Shown: in pieces, positions 41,901-47,900 of the stretch
How the letters are laid out: the number at the start of each line of letters is the position of its first letter
Position numbering within the stretch: the stretch's first letter is position 1
Assembly (NCBI RefSeq): GCF_000026545.1
Contig: NC_011601.1
Reading direction: 5' to 3' (one strand)
Origin: Escherichia coli O127:H6 str. E2348/69
GTDB lineage: Bacteria > Pseudomonadota > Gammaproteobacteria > Enterobacterales > Enterobacteriaceae
Length of the DNA: 64,000 nucleotides
Made by a program: the position numbers

Positions 41901-44900
41901 CAGCAGATTTATTTTGTTCCCTTTATGACCGATGGTAGCGGAGTTAATACACCGACAAACAACCCGTCAGAAGATCCTGATATTGCCGGGTCTGGTTATT
42001 ACGGTTCGGCATCCCGAACGAACAAAAACTGGGTATCATCAAATCGCCCGACGCATTTCAGCTCATGGGCGCGTCGTGGCATTATTCCCGATCGTATGGC
42101 AACTGCTATTCTGAACGTAGCCGGTCGCACCTTAGCCTTCATTAGTGGTAAGGCACCGGAAATCAAACCCTCGCCCGGCGGCGACACGCCATCGGGGCCG
42201 TCTGAAGATGCATCCGTACGCACAATCTCCCTGTTGCCGACAGCCGGAGATGCTGCTGCGCAGGGCTGGAGCATTAAGAATGGCGGAATTCAGTTGTCAG
42301 ATGGTGTATTTAAGATCACCAAGCAGAGCAATAAAACCTGGTCCCTGATGCATCCGGTGGATGACGCAATTACCCTGCTGACACAGGGCGGCAGACTGAC
42401 CTGTAAGTTCCGCCTCTCAGGCGCACTGACCAACAATCAGTTCGGGCTGGGGATTTATCTGTATACGGACGCTCCCGTTCCTGATGATGTGGCGATGACG
42501 GGTACTGGTAATCCGTTCCTGATGTCTTACTTCACTCAGACCACTGACGGCAGAGTGAATCTGATGCATCACAGGAAAGCCGGAAACACGAAGCTGGGGG
42601 AGTTCGGCGATTACGGTAACGACTGGCAGACGCTGGAGCTGGTGTTCACCGCCGGCAGTGCCACGGTTACTCCGAAACTGAATGGAGTGGCTGGCCCGGC
42701 ATTCCAGGTTATAAAAGACAGTCTGACACTGGGACTGAATGCGCTGACGCTGACGGATGTTACAAAAAATGCAGCGTATGGCGTTGAGATAGAAAGTCTG
42801 GTGCTGGAGATAAATGCACCGGCAGCATAATAAAAAAAGCCAGCGCCCACTCTGAAGGACGCTGGCTAAAACGGGTAGATGTACTTCACATGATACTTAT
42901 ACTTGGCAGTACATTTTCTGACAGACAGTGACGGATGTTGTCAAGATATTGTGTCATTTATAACCTGAATCAGGGGTTGGCCGGAATGTTATCTGGCATT
43001 TTTAGCAGAGCCTGAATGCCATAATCACGGCTCCCGGCGTTGGCCGTCAGTGGGTGACACTGGCGGCTTTTTTGTGCACAGAAAACCCCCAGCTAGGCTC
43101 TGTCTCTTATACACAAATCCCCACCCGGGGATTTGTGATGTCTGTCAGTCTGCTTTAGGGGGACTCTTTCCATCCGGTAGTTTCCTTCCTCCCCGGCAGC
43201 GATTTTTTGAACTTTTTCCTCACCCGTTGATCTTCTCTTATATTTCATTTTCTTCGGGTCTGTTATGGTACTTTCTGATTGTTATTCATGGGCTAACGAG
43301 CAGTTTGGACATGCCCGTCTCGGTGATCCGCGTCGTACACGACGCCTTGTGTCACTGGCCTCTTCTCTCGCTCAGCATGCAGGTCTTTCTATTGTGAAAT
43401 CATCCCAGTCCACTGCTCAGGTTGAAGGTGCGTACCGCCTGATACGTAACCCGTCTGTGTCCCCGCAAGCCATTGCCGAAGCCGGATTTACCGCCACTGT
43501 AAGGGCATGTGAGGCTCATCCGCTGCTCCTCGCGCTGGAAGACACCACCACCATTAACTTCAGTCACAGTACGGCATCTGATGACCTGGGGAATACCACC
43601 ACTAACCCGAAGACGCGCGGGCTGCTGGCTCACTCTGTCCTGATGTACGCCCCCGACAGCGCCCTGCCAGTCGGTCTTATCGAACAGCAGCGCTGGAGTC
43701 GTGCCACGGACACCTACGGTGTTAAGCACCAGCGAAAAGAACGTCCCTATGAAGAAAAAGAAAGTTACCGCTGGCAGCAGGCTTCGGAGCGCATGGCCGA
43801 ACGGCTGGGGGAGATACAGAAACGGGTAATCACTGTCTGTGACCGGGAAGCGGATATCTGGCATTACCTGCATTATAAAGTCAGCCACGGGCAGCGCTTC
43901 GTGGTGCGTGCAGCACAGAATCGCCGGCTGGAAGAAGCACCCGGCAAGCTCTTCGAACTGCCGGAAGTCCTGGCAACCGCGGGAAGCCACACGCTGAATG
44001 TGATGCAAAAAGGCGGGCGGGCAGCCCGCCAGGCCCGGATGTTCATCAGTTACAGCGAAGTCAGCATAAAAAATCCCGACAACAGCGGCCAGGCGCTCCC
44101 GCTCACGTATGTCTGTTGCCGGGAGCAGGCAGAGGACGGCGCCTGCTGGCATCTGCTGACGTCAGAAAAAGTGGCGAGTGCCGCCGATGCGCGACGTATC
44201 GTCAGCCATTACGAGCGACGCTGGCTGATAGAGGAATACCACAAGGCGTGGAAAAGTGGTGGTACATGTGTGGAATCGCTGCGAATGCAGACCCGGGATA
44301 ACCTCGAGCGCATGGTGGTTATCAAGGCGTTTATCGCGGTGCGGGTGCTGGGCCTGCGGCAGGGCGGTATCAGTGAAGAAACACAAAATGACAGCTGTGA
44401 GAAAATACTGACGCCGACAGAGTGGAAACTGCTGTGGGTTAAGCTGGAAGGAAAACCGCTTCCGTCACAGATGCCGACACTGAAATGGGCCTGTCTGAAA
44501 CTGGCGAAACTGGGGCGATGGCATGACAGCAAACGCACCGGTCGCCCCGGTTGGGTAGTCATGTGGGATGGCTGGTTCAGACTTCAGGATATGGTTGAGG
44601 GTTACCTGGTGATGAAGTCTCTTGATCAGGAGATCTGATCAAGAGACAGAGCTAGGCTGGGGGTTCCGGAAAGCTTTCAGCTTTGAGCCAGTTATTAAAA
44701 CCCCTTTTGATTTGTTAAAACACCTTGCGGTCTGGCAACTGCAAGTGTCAAACAAGAAATCAAAAGGGGGTCCCAATGGGGAACGAAAAGAGCTTAGCGC
44801 ACACCCGATGGAACTGTAAATATCACATAGTATTTGCGCCAAAATACCGAAGACAGGTGTTCTACAGAGAGAAGCGTAGAGCAATAGGCTGTATTTTGAG

Positions 44901-47900
44901 AAAGCTGTGTGAGTGGAAAAGTGTACGGATTCTGGAAGCTGAATGCTGTGCAGATCATATCCATATGCTTGTGGAGATCCCGCCCAAAATGAGCGTATCC
45001 GGCTTTATGGGATATCTGAAAGGGAAAAGCAGTCTGATGCTTTACGAGCAGTTTGGTGATTTGAAATTCAAGTACAGGAACAGGGAGTTCTGGTGCAGAG
45101 GGTATTACGTCGATACGGTGGGTAAGAACACGGCGAAGATACAGGATTACATAAAGCACCAGCTTGAAGAGGATAAAATGGGAGAGCAGTTATCGATTCC
45201 CTATCCGGGCAGCCCGTTTACGGGCCGTAAGTAACGAAGTTGGATGCAAATGTCAGATCGTGTGCGCCTGTTAGGGCGCGGCTGGTAAGAGAGCCTTATA
45301 GGCGCATTTGAAAAACCTCCGGCTATGCCGGAGGATATTTATTGTTTTTCTTTACTTTCATTTTCTGTCGGCGGTGACGGAGACATACATCAGATGGAAA
45401 AAATCACAACAGGTGTGTCATACACCACGTCAGCGGTGGGGACGGGATACTGGTTACTGCAGCTGCTGGACAAAGTCTCTCCGTCCCAGTGGGTGGCAAT
45501 AGGTGTGCTGGGGAGTCTGCTGTTTGGCCTGCTGACGTATCTGACAAACCTTTATTTCAAGATTAAAGAAGATAAGCGCAAGGCTGCGAGAGGTGAATAA
45601 TGCCTCCATCATTACGAAAAGCCGTTGCTGCTGCTATTGGTGGTGGGGCTGTTGCCATAGCGTCTGTGCTCATCACTGGTCCGAGTGGTGACGATGGCCT
45701 GGAAGGTGTCAGCTACATACCATACGAAGATATCGTTGGCGTATGGACTGTATGTCACGGACACACCGGAAAAGACATCATGCCCGGTAAAACGTATACC
45801 GAAGCAGAATGCAAAGCCCTCCTGAATAAAGACCTTGCCACGGTCGCCAGACAAATAAACCCGTACATCAACGTCGATATACCGGAAACAACGCGCGGCG
45901 CTCTTTACTCGTTCGTTTACAACGTGGGCGCTGGCAATTTCAGAACATCGACGCTTCTTCGCAAAATAAACCAGGGCGATATCAAAGGCGCATGTGATCA
46001 GCTACGGCGCTGGACATACGCTGGCGGTAAGCAATGGAAAGGGCTGATGACTCGCCGTGAGATTGAGCGTGAAGTCTGTTTGTGGGGGCAACAATGAGCA
46101 GAGTAACCGCGATTATCTACGTTCTGGTTATTTGCCTCATCGTTTGCCTTTCATGGGCTGTTAATCATTACCGTGATAACGCCATCGCCTACAAAGAGCA
46201 GCGCGATAAAGCCACATCCATCATCGCTGATATGCAGAAGCGGCAACGTGATGTAGCAGAACTTGACGCCAGATACACAAAGGAGCTTGCTGATGCTAAT
46301 GCGACTATCGAAAGTCTCCGTGCTGATGTTTCTGCTGGGCGTAAGCGCCTGCAAGTCGCCGCCACCTGTGCAAAGTCAACGACCGGAGCCAGCGGCATGG
46401 GCAATGGAGAAACCCCAGGACTTACAGCAGATGCTGAACTCAATTATTACCGTCTCCGAAGTGGAATCGACAGGATAACCGCGCAGGTTAACTACTTGCA
46501 GGAGTACATTAGGACGCAATGCCTTCGATGATAGCGATAATTTTCCCATTATCTTTCATATGCGTGATTTTAGTTAGTTTTAGTCGCAACACGAATAAAA
46601 CAGAGAACCACCCGCTATACGAGTGGTTCTGATTTACACTTTTGAAACTAAAAGCTAAATACTTGAGCAAGAACAGCTAACGCTGCGCAAAAAGCAGCCC
46701 GTTTATTCCATTTACTTTGTATTTCAATGGCTTTAAAACAACCCAGTGATGAGAAACTGCCTTGTTCCGTTTTTGGTGGGTGTTCTTTGGAAGATGCAAA
46801 ACATGAAATAATCCAAAAAATGGCGGAAAAAATTCCAAAAATTATTGAAGGCAAATGATGCTCTTTCAAAAACTCCATGACTTAACTCTCTTAAAAGTTG
46901 CTAAACATCGCTCGCAAACAAGAAAGAAAAGTTCTGTTGCGAGCACTCCACAATTTAAACGCCACACAAGCAGCTATTAGGTGGACGGTTCCAAGATTGC
47001 TATCAACTGCCACCCGAATACCGTCAAAACTTGACGTCCAACCAAGAATTATTGAGTTGTAAACTCAACGCAATGATCTGGTTGGTATAAATGTGACATA
47101 TGTCATGAATCGACTAGTTGAGATAGTCAAGATGGGCTTGCTTGACATCATCACCACAACCGGAGCCAACAATGGCAGATTGCGTTACCCAGATTTGATA
47201 AAGGCATTTTAGCCTGACATAACTATGCACTGTATCGTCGCCGTATTCCCGCATCAACAGAGACCACAGCCCGAGAGGGAGACTCCTCTGCGCGAGTGTG
47301 CGGGGATAATCAAAAACGATACACACCGGGGTTTACCGTGTTAACGGAGCGCGGCGTTGTCCCCTCATGGTCGCTGGTCCGGTGCGATGGTGGAAGAAAC
47401 CGGACGATGTGTTACCTCGCAAGCTCTGTTATGTCATGTGTCTGATTTGTGATTTAAGTCGGATAATTGTCATTGCCATTAAGCAGAGGATTGATGACCG
47501 ACAGGGCTGCATTGTTAGAATAAGACTTATTCTTATCTATGCCGGGAATAAAAATGAAAAGAAATCTTCCGTTAATTATTTTGTTGTCTTCTTTGGTTAT
47601 GGGCTGTACGCAACATAAAACAGATATGCCTCGACAGTTGGTTAAGGCATTACCACAATATCCGGCCTATGCCGCGGCAAATTATATAAAGGGACGGGTT
47701 GATGTGAAGTTTGATATTGGTGCTGATGGTACTGTCACCCGAATTGAGTTTATCCGTTCAGAGCCGCACCATCTGTTTGATGAGCAGGTTGTAAAGGCGA
47801 TGGCAAAATGGCGATTTGAGAAGGACAAGCCGCGTAAAGGCGTGAAGAAAACATTTATCTTTAGTCCTTCAGCACCCTGATTATTTTATCAGAAGTTAAT

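What the first reader, a model, noticed from the sequence alone, without database searches (positions are those of the whole stretch)
43077..45340. IS-within-IS: an IS50-like element inserted in the loop of an IS200-like hairpin, upstream of the lysis genes
A 1550-bp IS4-family element is flanked by a perfect 9-bp duplication (AGCTAGGCT). Removing it and one copy recreates CCCCCAGC-TAG-GCTGGGGG, an 8-bp stem with a 3-nt loop about 120 nt upstream of an IS200-type tnpA. IS200 is known to carry such a left-end hairpin. The element's right end is identical to the Tn5 inside end as I recall it (CTGTCTCTTGATCAGATCT). Its left end (CTGTCTCTTATACACAAAT) is a natural sequence very close to the engineered Tn5 mosaic end (CTGTCTCTTATACACATCT). 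Both elements sit between nanS-p and the holin, inside the late transcription unit, and add terminator-like structures. This probably compromises late-gene read-through.
Basis: partly seen in the sequence, partly recalled or inferred. Interest (0 to 1): 0.5.

Follow-up and report, generated by a model that had tools for sequence, protein, structure and literature searches.

The report
ISEc13 inserted in IS200C terminator hairpin
A Tn5-like insertion sequence (ISEc13) sits at the tip of the left-end hairpin of a second insertion sequence (IS200C) in a defective E. coli E2348/69 prophage; both elements are already named, and the nesting is explained by ISEc13 and its relatives strongly preferring the tips of GC-rich hairpins.

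Summary
The window is E. coli E2348/69 (CP059840.2). ISEc13 (IS4 family, IS50 subgroup, 1550 bp, window 43100-44649) has a perfect 9-bp duplication, AGCTAGGCT. It splits the left-end hairpin of IS200C (711 bp; outer limits of the composite 43074-45343). IS200C itself lies directly after a native terminator upstream of the holin. Both elements are named in RefSeq.

New here: the nesting is not chance. ISEc13 inserts at the apex of C-run/G-run hairpins. Positions -13 to -10 from each end are C in 79-97% of unique sites (P about 5e-34). Eight of 12 rebuilt targets have a stem of at least 6 bp centred on the duplication, against 0.6% of random positions. Relatives with 40-77% identical transposases in other proteobacteria do the same (12/16).

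E2348/69 has the most ISEc13 copies of 5,426 genomes (30+2). Three of its eight IS200C copies carry ISEc13 at the same position, one inverted.

The claim that late transcription is compromised is not supported. The insertion destroys a terminator, a viable phage has a terminator at this spot, and the prophage has already lost its head and tail genes. Overall: known elements, plus an apparently undescribed but family-typical target preference.

The parts
40980..42830 (+). nanS-p-type SASA carbohydrate esterase gene, the upstream neighbour in the prophage late region
   Evidence: Pfam DUF1737 + SASA + DUF6645; RefSeq CDS WP_000874298.1
43042..43073 (+). Native intrinsic terminator (stem-loop 43042-43068 plus T-tract). 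IS200C is inserted immediately 3' of its T-tract.
   Evidence: Terminator scan; DNA fold -10.8 kcal/mol; the same feature is annotated 'terminator' in phage 434; empty site in phage 2B8
43074..43099 (+). IS200C nt 1-26: left terminus, 5' arm of the left-end hairpin (AACCCCCAGC, 43084-43093) and left copy of the ISEc13 target duplication (AGCTAGGCT, 43091-43099)
   Evidence: identical to the uninterrupted IS200C at CP059840.2 3345862-3346572
43100..44649 (+). ISEc13, 1550 bp, IS4 family / IS50 subgroup. Left end CTGTCTCTTATACACAAAT (43100-43118); right end identical to Tn5 IE (44631-44649).
   Evidence: RefSeq product 'IS4-like element ISEc13 family transposase'
43265..44638 (+). ISEc13 transposase gene (457 aa), intact. 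DDE and YREK motifs align with those of Tn5 Tnp.
   Evidence: Pfam Tnp_DNA_bind and DDE_Tnp_1, NCBIfam transpos_IS4_3 at 2.6e-154; Tn5 Tnp E = 6e-84, 42% identity
44650..44658 (+). Right copy of the 9-bp target duplication AGCTAGGCT
44659..45343 (+). Rest of IS200C (nt 27-711): 3' arm of the split hairpin (GCTGGGGGTT, 44655-44664, overlapping the duplication), 5' UTR, tnpA, right-end hairpin
44643..44766 (+). IS200 5'UTR / STnc490 (art200) RNA element, intact downstream of the insertion point
   Evidence: Rfam RF01405, 116.9 bits, E = 3e-24, full model
44776..45234 (+). IS200C tnpA (152 aa, Y1/HUH transposase), intact
   Evidence: Pfam Y1_Tnp 1.7e-37; NCBIfam transpos_IS200 6.7e-43; WP_000526113.1
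45316..45334 (+). IS200C right-end hairpin CCTCCGGC-TAT-GCCGGAGG. It is terminator-like on both strands and is itself a second ISEc13-type target.
   Evidence: In metagenome relics (L020, L022, L055, L056, L059, L065) the ISEc13 right flank is GGCTATGCCggagg...
45394..45600 (+). Class II (P21-type) holin, first lysis gene downstream of the composite
   Evidence: Pfam Phage_holin_2_1 1.2e-32; RefSeq

Best explanation
There were two successive, targeted insertions. First, IS200C (711 bp, Y1/HUH single-strand transposase, no duplication) inserted immediately 3' of the T-tract of the intrinsic terminator upstream of the holin. That is its usual kind of site. Second, ISEc13, a cut-and-paste DDE element of the IS50 subgroup, inserted into the apex of IS200C's left-end hairpin and made a 9-bp duplication centred on the loop.

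ISEc13 landed there because it strongly prefers a two-fold symmetric target: a C-run, about 9-10 bp, then a G-run. This is the top of a GC-rich stem-loop such as an intrinsic terminator. The IS200C left-end terminator hairpin (C5-N9-G5 in a 10-bp stem) is a near-perfect instance, so every IS200C copy is a landing pad.

Shown here: the anatomy, the empty and intermediate states, the target statistics, and recurrence in both orientations. Inferred: the order of events; that the transposase dimer reads the two half-sites; and that the split hairpin leaves this IS200C copy without its left-end terminator and probably unable to transpose. The effect on the prophage is probably negligible, because the prophage is already defective.
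For: Identity and anatomy.

States of the site. Phages 2B8 and 434 show the empty site. Strain Z1323CEC0015 has an uninterrupted IS200C at the same terminator, one T away from the E2348/69 position.

IS200C preference. Six independent left junctions all follow a hairpin plus T-tract: prophage, hydN, the trp terminator, the phage nin region and two metagenome loci.

ISEc13 target. In 29 unique left and 15 unique right half-sites, C occupies -13 to -10 in 79-97%. CCC occurs in -14..-8 in 27/29 against a 4.7% background (P = 5e-34), and in 22/24 when IS200-derived sites are excluded. In 12 rebuilt targets the duplication is 8 or 9 bp and centred on the loop. The outer duplication positions are complementary in 10-11 of 12 sites with varying bases. 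A stem of at least 6 bp centred on the duplication occurs in 8/12 sites against 0.6% of random positions (P = 7e-16). Many sites lie just after gene ends, several between convergent genes.

Clade-wide. Relatives with 40-77% amino-acid identity from Scandinavium, Pantoea, Alishewanella, Alteromonas, Colwellia, Pseudoalteromonas and several MAGs behave the same way: 12/16, P = 3e-24.

Recurrence. E2348/69 has 30+2 ISEc13 copies, the maximum among 5,426 genomes, and 8 IS200C places. Three composites share the duplication AGCTAGGCT: prophage and hydN in one orientation, trpA inverted. Further independent IS200::ISEc13 junctions are in metagenome contigs: L031 (inverted, different flank) and groups A and B (other IS200 variants).

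Hairpin. The intact hairpin folds at -11.7 kcal/mol and the halves do not fold. The published IS200 left-end inverted repeat at nt 12-34 is a bidirectional terminator (PMC4513863).
Against: No transposition experiment exists, so the preference is inferred from fixed insertions, and selection against genic insertions must contribute to the intergenic bias. Four of 12 ISEc13 targets have weak stems (1-5 bp) although they keep the C/G half-sites, so sequence recognition and structure recognition are not separated. The census of unoccupied CCCC-N9/10-GGGG motifs was too small to help (6 in 473 kb). The order of the two insertions at this site is inferred, not observed; no E2348/69 relative with IS200C alone at this exact position was found. 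ISfinder could not be consulted, so the element names rest on RefSeq/PGAP annotation.
Confidence: 0.85

Rival explanations
1. The two same-orientation composites in E2348/69 (prophage and hydN) arose because the whole 2270-bp IS200C::ISEc13 unit was moved by IS200C TnpA, not because ISEc13 hit two IS200C copies separately.
For: Both copies are 100% identical over 2278 bp and have exactly the IS200C outer termini at two typical IS200C target sites. No genome in the collection has IS200C alone at hydN. The arms 43084-43108 and 44641-44665 are 88% complementary and could pair over a long range in single-stranded DNA. tnpA is intact.
Against: The left-end palindrome that Y1 transposases bind is split by 1.56 kb, and neither half folds. 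The same hairpin is hit in the opposite orientation at trpA in the same genome and again in L031, and in other IS200 variants, which proves independent hits occur. With 32 ISEc13 copies and 8 near-perfect targets, two or three hits are roughly what a rare-motif preference predicts. [quoted passage not shown]
Confidence: 0.1
2. The ISEc13 insertion was copied from one IS200C copy to another by homologous recombination (gene conversion) between IS200C copies.
For: The IS200C copies in E2348/69 are 100% identical. Recombination between ISEc13 copies clearly happens: flanks are swapped in L012/L013 and in L087/L099.
Against: Only 26 bp of IS200C homology lies to the left of the insertion, near or below the usual minimum for RecA-dependent exchange (established knowledge, not tested here). 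This model cannot produce the inverted copy at trpA.
Confidence: 0.05
3. There is no real target preference. ISEc13 inserts at random and only insertions in harmless intergenic hairpins survive selection.
For: Most sites are intergenic, often between convergent genes, where insertions are least harmful.
Against: Selection cannot centre an 8-9 bp duplication on the loop, nor fix C at -13 to -10 from both ends in 79-97% of sites. The same 9-bp register was used in three E2348/69 copies and in L031. Insertions inside another IS or in a defective prophage are under no such selection.
Confidence: 0.03
4. One reading: the two elements add terminators inside the late operon and block Q-dependent transcription from reaching the lysis genes.
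For: 2.27 kb of foreign DNA lies between the esterase and the holin. The IS200C right-end hairpin is terminator-like on the + strand.
Against: The ISEc13 insertion removes the IS200C left-end terminator. There are no + strand terminator-like sites inside ISEc13. A native terminator already exists at this spot in phage 434. IS200C occurs in the antiterminated nin region of deposited phage genomes. Q-modified RNA polymerase is terminator-resistant (established knowledge). The prophage is already defective.
Confidence: 0.1

Closest known systems
IS50 / Tn5 (IS4 family, IS50 subgroup)
   Same: Full-length homologous transposase (E = 6e-84, 42% identity; DDE and YREK motifs aligned). Same layout: an OE-like end upstream of tnp and an IE-identical end overlapping the 3' end of the gene, with two GATC sites. 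8-9 bp duplication and 1550 bp, as listed for the subgroup in PMC2266710. Tn5 targets are also often palindromic with G/C at the ends of the duplication (PMC1525189).
   Different: It is a separate element, not IS50. The Tn5 target consensus (A-GNTYWRANC-T, from memory) is weak, whereas ISEc13 shows near-invariant C4/G4 half-sites outside the duplication and apex-centred insertion in long stems. The duplication length varies between 8 and 9 bp.
IS200 of Salmonella (IS200/IS605 family)
   Same: About 710 bp with a single Y1/HUH tnpA. The left-end perfect palindrome is at the same position as the published nt 12-34 bidirectional terminator. It has an SD-sequestering 5'UTR and the STnc490/art200 element (PMC4513863). 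No inverted terminal repeats and no duplication.
   Different: This is the E. coli variant IS200C. Here its left-end hairpin is split by ISEc13, and it is found consistently right after terminator T-tracts.
ISRm22 (IS4 family) and other REP-targeting ISs (IS1397/ISKpn1 of IS3; IS621, ISPpu9, ISPa11 of IS110)
   Same: These insertion sequences insert specifically into extragenic palindromes. ISRm22 has all 9-10 copies in REPs of S. meliloti (PMC1525189). IS1397 inserts into palindromic units (same paper).
   Different: ISEc13's targets are not one repeat family. They are diverse unrelated hairpins (terminators and IS200 ends) that share only C/G-run stems. It belongs to the IS50 subgroup, for which the review text mentions no such specificity (PMC2266710). 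IS110 elements use a different, RNA-guided chemistry.
IS231A (IS4 family)
   Same: Symmetric target of G/C runs separated by a short spacer, hit preferentially inside the end of another mobile element (Tn4430). This is from memory of Hallet et al. [quoted passage not shown]
   Different: Different subgroup and host. The consensus is GGG-N5-CCC (opposite polarity of runs) with 10-12 bp duplications.
Class C group II introns
   Same: Mobile elements that home to intrinsic terminator stem-loops as safe sites (from memory; only touched on in PMC7923331).
   Different: These are retroelements that insert just after the terminator, more like IS200C's position here than the apex position of ISEc13.

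Membership tests
IS4 family, IS50 subgroup (for the 1550-bp element) | DDE catalytic triad and Y-(2)-R-(3)-E-(6)-K signature in a single unframeshifted ORF | tested here: met
   One 457-aa ORF. The alignment to Tn5 Tnp shows LALEDTT, VCDREADI and Y-ER-R-WLI-E-EYHKAW-K in register with Tn5 D97, D188 and Y319/R322/E326/K333 (Tn5 residue numbers from memory). NCBIfam transpos_IS4_3 scores 514 bits against a cut-off of 160.
IS4 family, IS50 subgroup (for the 1550-bp element) | 5'-CT termini with terminal inverted repeats, size 1350-1550 bp, duplication of 8-9 bp (PMC2266710, Table 1) | tested here: met
   Ends CTGTCTCTT.../...AAGAGACAG and 1550 bp. Duplications are 8 bp (8 sites) or 9 bp (4 sites).
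IS4 family, IS50 subgroup (for the 1550-bp element) | Tn5-type N-terminal DNA-binding domain and C-terminal dimerisation domain | tested here: inconclusive
   Tnp_DNA_bind scores 70 bits (cut-off 24), which is met. Dimer_Tnp_Tn5 scores 24.1 bits, below its 26.7 cut-off, although the Tn5 alignment runs through to residue 453.
ISEc13 (named element) | Near-identity to the ISfinder reference sequence of ISEc13 | not testable with these tools
   ISfinder is not available. RefSeq/PGAP names the identical protein WP_000244358.1 'IS4-like element ISEc13 family transposase'.
IS200/IS605 family, IS200 group (for the outer element) | Y1 HUH transposase of about 150 aa as the only gene | tested here: met
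   Pfam Y1_Tnp 1.7e-37 and NCBIfam transpos_IS200 6.7e-43. The HIH motif and a C-terminal Tyr (DYIKHQ) are visible in the translation.
IS200/IS605 family, IS200 group (for the outer element) | No terminal inverted repeats, no target duplication, subterminal hairpins at both ends | tested here: met
   Comparing the empty site with occupied sites shows no duplication if the element is G-TGCACAG...TTTATT. The left-end hairpin folds at -11.7 kcal/mol and the right-end hairpin at -10.0 kcal/mol.
IS200/IS605 family, IS200 group (for the outer element) | Left-end palindrome at nt 12-34 acting as terminator; structured 5'UTR with antisense RNA (PMC4513863) | tested here: met
   The rebuilt hairpin occupies nt 11-33 of the 711-bp element. 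Rfam STnc490 gives a full-length match. Terminator activity itself was not tested.
Hairpin / extragenic-palindrome-targeting insertion sequences (functional class) | Insertions concentrated at a defined position of palindromic targets far above chance | tested here: met
   (P from 1e-15 to 1e-34). The same register is reused in the independent IS200C copies.
Hairpin / extragenic-palindrome-targeting insertion sequences (functional class) | Target choice shown to be a property of the transposase in a transposition assay | not testable with these tools
   This needs in vivo or in vitro transposition with wild-type and mutated hairpin targets.

The most novel reading that the evidence does not exclude
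A whole clade of Tn5-like (IS50-subgroup) transposases is guided to the apex of DNA stem-loops: intrinsic terminators and the end hairpins of IS200 elements. These enzymes may be reading an extruded or bendable hairpin structure rather than a base sequence, with the cut stagger (8-12 bp) set by the geometry of the stem. That would be a natural, structure-directed safe-site targeting mode in the enzyme family used for tagmentation. It would also make ISEc13 a natural disabler of IS200 elements.
Probability: 0.3. Interest if true: 0.6.

Novelty: new member of a known kind. Interest (0 to 1): 0.35.

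Why it matters
The nested insertion itself is ordinary genome annotation. Its explanation is more useful. First, a Tn5 relative with a sharp, symmetric target rule offers natural variation for understanding, and perhaps engineering, target choice in the transposase family used for tagmentation. Second, it predicts where ISEc13-type elements will land: terminators between convergent genes and the ends of IS200 elements. 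This helps in interpreting IS-driven rearrangements in EPEC E2348/69, a reference pathogen with the largest ISEc13 load seen among the 5,426 genomes searched; inversions between ISEc13 copies were seen in another E. coli genome (CP148541.1). Third, it shows one IS repeatedly disrupting the left-end hairpin of another, which probably immobilises those IS200C copies.

Tried and rejected
1. An exact 38-nt ISEc13 left-end scan of one-genome-per-species contigs found nothing. It was replaced by a metagenome scan and a protein-based scan.

2. The E2348/69 genome paper was not held under the PMC id I recalled (PMC2612414), so IS copy numbers come from BLAST place counts.

3. The literature search for ISEc13 gave only 8 passing mentions and nothing on target choice. 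Broader searches for terminator- or hairpin-targeting ISs returned mostly unrelated papers.

4. A census of unoccupied CCCC-N9/10-GGGG motifs, meant to separate sequence from structure recognition, found only 6 instances in 473 kb, which is too few.

5. The other two E2348/69 stocks (LT827011, LT903847) could not date the prophage insertion. They lack this prophage flank at 98.6% identity or better, so they are uninformative.

6. I considered whether Z1323CEC0015's IS200C at the same terminator shows common ancestry with the E2348/69 copy. It sits one T away and differs at 8 of 710 positions, so it looks like a separate event, although slippage in the T-run cannot be excluded.

7. I considered an assembly artefact. 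It is rejected for the hydN and trpA composites, which are present in three independent assemblies. The prophage copy is seen in one assembly only, but its junctions are exact.

8. No second ISEc13 or IS200C copy is present in the window.

Full report
**What is in the window**

The window is 100% identical to Escherichia coli E2348/69 (EPEC O127:H6), chromosome CP059840.2, positions 2869325-2871887 on the minus strand for the region queried. RefSeq annotates the two transposase genes as 'IS4-like element ISEc13 family transposase' and 'IS200/IS605-like element IS200C family transposase'. They lie between a SASA-family esterase (nanS-p type: DUF1737 + SASA + DUF6645) and a class II holin, lysozyme and spanin.

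- A 1550-bp element occupies 43100-44649.
- AGCTAGGCT is present at 43091-43099 and again at 44650-44658.
- Removing the element and one repeat restores AACCCCCAGC-TAG-GCTGGGGGTT.

As single-stranded DNA the restored hairpin is a 10-bp stem of -11.7 kcal/mol (z = -4.4). The two halves in the window fold no better than shuffled sequence.

**The inner element**

The 457-aa ORF (43265-44638) matches Pfam Tnp_DNA_bind and DDE_Tnp_1 and NCBIfam transpos_IS4_3 (514 bits). It aligns end to end with Tn5 transposase structures (E = 6e-84, 42% identity) with the DDE and YREK residues in register.

Its right end equals the Tn5 inside end 19/19. Its left end differs at two positions from both the Tn5 outside end and the engineered mosaic end. 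OE and ME were checked in PMC3347997. The IE sequence is from memory, and the same string appears in a primer reading out of a kanamycin cassette (PMC3944678).

Size (1550 bp), CT termini and 8-9 bp duplications match the IS50 subgroup as tabulated in PMC2266710. It is a distinct element, not IS50.

**The outer element**

Phages 2B8 and 434 show the empty site...ggcggcttttttg|tttttctttac.... Seven IS200-type left junctions and several right junctions were compared. The base after ...GATATTTATT varies between G, T and C. The most economical limits are therefore G-TGCACAG...GATATTTATT, that is window 43074-45343. This gives 711 bp for IS200C alone, with no duplication.

The rebuilt sequence is 100% identical to an uninterrupted IS200C elsewhere in E2348/69 (3345862-3346572). 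Its tnpA (44776-45234) is an intact Y1/HUH transposase, and Rfam finds the IS200 STnc490 element in full at 44643-44766.

The split hairpin sits where Salmonella IS200 has its left-end inverted repeat, nt 12-34. That repeat is described as a bidirectional rho-independent terminator that protects against impinging transcription, with tnpA transcription starting near nt 40 (PMC4513863). [quoted passage not shown] These ends are the presumed transposase binding sites.

**Where IS200C sits**

At all six independent sites examined, IS200C lies immediately 3' of a stem-loop followed by a T-tract:
- the terminator before the holin (43042-43073, also annotated as a terminator in phage 434);
- the hydN-proximal hairpin;
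- the trp operon terminator;
- a hairpin after ren in two phages;
- two metagenome loci.

Strain Z1323CEC0015 carries an uninterrupted IS200C at the same prophage terminator. It is one T away and differs at 8 of 710 positions, so it is probably a separate event.

**Why ISEc13 is in the hairpin**

I collected ISEc13 junctions from:
- ten copies in E. coli CP148541.1;
- strain A21;
- 53 metagenome contigs;
- the E2348/69 loci.

Among 29 unique left and 15 unique right half-sites, positions -13 to -10 from the element end are C in 79-97%. CCC occurs at -14..-8 in 27/29 left half-sites against a 4.7% background (P = 5e-34), and in 22/24 when the IS200-derived sites are left out.

Twelve unique targets could be rebuilt. 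The duplication is 8 bp in eight of them and 9 bp in four, and it is centred on the loop of a palindrome. Its outermost positions are complementary in 10-11 of 12 sites with varying base identities. Positions beyond the C/G runs are complementary about 55% of the time. A run of at least 6 Watson-Crick pairs symmetric about the duplication centre is present in 8/12 targets against 0.6% of 20,000 random positions (P = 7e-16).

Several targets are evident intrinsic terminators just after gene ends, some between convergent genes. Examples are agp/yccJ (ACTCCCCCGC-GTGAA-GCGGGGGAGT) and a GAGATCCCCCCG-CT-CGGGGGGAT stem followed by TTTTTT. Selection alone cannot centre the duplication or fix the half-site distance.

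**The property is shared by the clade**

A protein-based scan of one genome per species found relatives with 40-77% identical transposases. They occur in Scandinavium, Pantoea, Alishewanella, Alteromonas, Colwellia, Pseudoalteromonas and several MAGs. Many have the identical 22-bp left terminus.

In 12 of 16 unique rebuilt targets they also sit at the apex of a stem of at least 6 bp (P = 3e-24). Often the stem has an A-run before it and a T-run after it, and the duplications are 8-12 bp. Some of these stems lack C/G runs, for example AAAGGCTGG-TTAT-AACCAGCCTTT. This hints that symmetry or structure matters as well as sequence. I could not separate the two: the exact CCCC-N9/10-GGGG motif is rare (6 unoccupied instances in 473 kb, two of them the IS200C hairpin), so the sample is too small.

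**Recurrence**

E2348/69 carries 30 chromosomal and 2 plasmid ISEc13 copies, the highest of 5,426 complete E. coli genomes (median 1). It has 8 IS200C places. Three IS200C copies carry ISEc13 with the same duplication, AGCTAGGCT:

| Site | Orientation of ISEc13 | Notes |
|---|---|---|
| Prophage (this window) | same as tnpA | seen in one assembly |
| Next to hydN | same as tnpA | 100% identical over 2278 bp; present in all three E2348/69 assemblies |
| After the trp terminator | inverted | one mismatch in ISEc13; present in all three assemblies |

Metagenome contigs add more cases:
- L031: another inverted hit, at a different IS200C site.
- Group A: an IS200 left end plus 50 nt of ISEc13, cut off by an IS3-family element.
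- Group B: an old, internally deleted ISEc13 lying between the first 25 nt and last 24 nt of an IS200. This is best explained by hits in both the left-end and the right-end hairpins followed by recombination.

The IS200 left-end hairpin is therefore a recurrent hot spot. Whether the two same-orientation E2348/69 copies are separate hits (my preference), a unit transposition by IS200C TnpA (about 10%) or gene conversion (about 5%) cannot be settled with these data.

**Consequences at this locus**

The insertion removes the IS200C left-end terminator and separates whatever lies upstream of nt 26 from the tnpA start region. The ISEc13 transposase gene now reads toward tnpA with no predicted + strand terminator in between. 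The split palindrome probably prevents TnpA from recognising this left end; this is an inference.

- The only + strand terminator-like structure the two elements leave is the IS200C right-end hairpin.
- A native terminator already precedes the holin here and in viable phage 434.
- IS200C sits in the antiterminated nin region of deposited phage genomes.
- Q-modified polymerase is terminator-resistant (established knowledge).
- The prophage, integrated between potB and potC, has lost its head and tail genes and carries other insertions.

**Comparison with known systems, and novelty**

Both elements and the genome are known, so the nested structure is an annotation-level fact. Palindrome-targeting ISs are also known. 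ISRm22 of the IS4 family has all its copies in REPs. IS1397/ISKpn1 and IS621 also insert into REPs. Tn5 sites tend to be palindromic with G/C at the ends of the duplication (PMC1525189). IS231A prefers GGG-N5-CCC (from memory).

I found no description of a hairpin or terminator preference for ISEc13 or for the IS50 subgroup in the searchable literature. ISfinder and subscription papers could not be checked. I therefore rate this as a new member of a known kind, of moderate interest to transposon specialists and low interest as a genome feature.

Noticed in passing
window 43112-43137 and 44617-44647: ISEc13 carries a perfect 11-bp hairpin just inside its left end (CACAAATCCCC-ACCC-GGGGATTTGTG), with C4...G4 like its own targets. 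It also has a 13-bp perfect palindrome at its right end (GTCTCTTGATCAG-GAGAT-CTGATCAAGAGAC), so an inward-facing copy of the end sequence lies next to the real end. Function unknown.
   Followed up: no
L074-L122 (e.g. L082, L085, L090, L107): The left-terminal 22 bp CTGTCTCTTATACACAAATCCC is identical in elements whose transposases are only about 49% identical to ISEc13 (Alishewanella, Alteromonas, Colwellia MAG). The DNA end is far more conserved than the protein.
   Followed up: partly
L012 and L013 (CP148541.1 2304717-2307290 and 2365194-2367767); L087 and L099 (Alishewanella jeotgali): Pairs of ISEc13-type copies have swapped flanking duplications. This indicates an inversion of the intervening segment (about 60 kb in the E. 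coli case) by recombination between inverted copies.
   Followed up: partly
L105 (MAG, Rhodanobacteraceae): The two flanks of an ISEc13 relative are inverted rather than direct copies (GGCAAAGCC / GGCTTTGCC) within a CCCCC...GGGGG hairpin. Not explained.
   Followed up: no
L020, L022, L043, L049, L055, L056, L059, L065: A conserved relic: the first 25 nt of an IS200, an about 95%-identical ISEc13 lacking nt 532-1120, then the last 24 nt of the IS200, all at one genomic site. The IS200 interior is gone, which implies that ISEc13 also hits the IS200 right-end hairpin (CCTCC-GGCTATGCC-GGAGG).
   Followed up: partly
window 52789-53237: The prophage structural region is deleted. A truncated S49 head protease gene abuts a truncated NlpC/P60 tail gene directly after the portal gene, so the prophage cannot make virions.
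   Followed up: partly
window 33372-34460 and about 30700-33100: The same prophage has an IS481-family transposase next to hokD. It also has a foreign block (HNH endonuclease, AAA ATPase, frameshifted tyrosine recombinase, DUF5677) in the early/nin region.
   Followed up: no
window about 20130-60500: The prophage is integrated between potB and potC of the spermidine/putrescine transporter operon, with intact integrase and excisionase. The two other E2348/69 assemblies (LT827011, LT903847) lack this prophage's late region and are 96-152 kb shorter.
   Followed up: partly
window 39238-39487: tRNA-Ile and tRNA-Arg genes, then IraM and the esterase, are arranged as in Stx phages, but there are no stx genes.
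   Followed up: no
ISEc13 target sites generally: The same element makes 8-bp or 9-bp duplications, and relatives make 8-12 bp. The length seems to follow the spacing of the two half-sites, which is unusual for a DDE transposase with a fixed stagger.
   Followed up: partly
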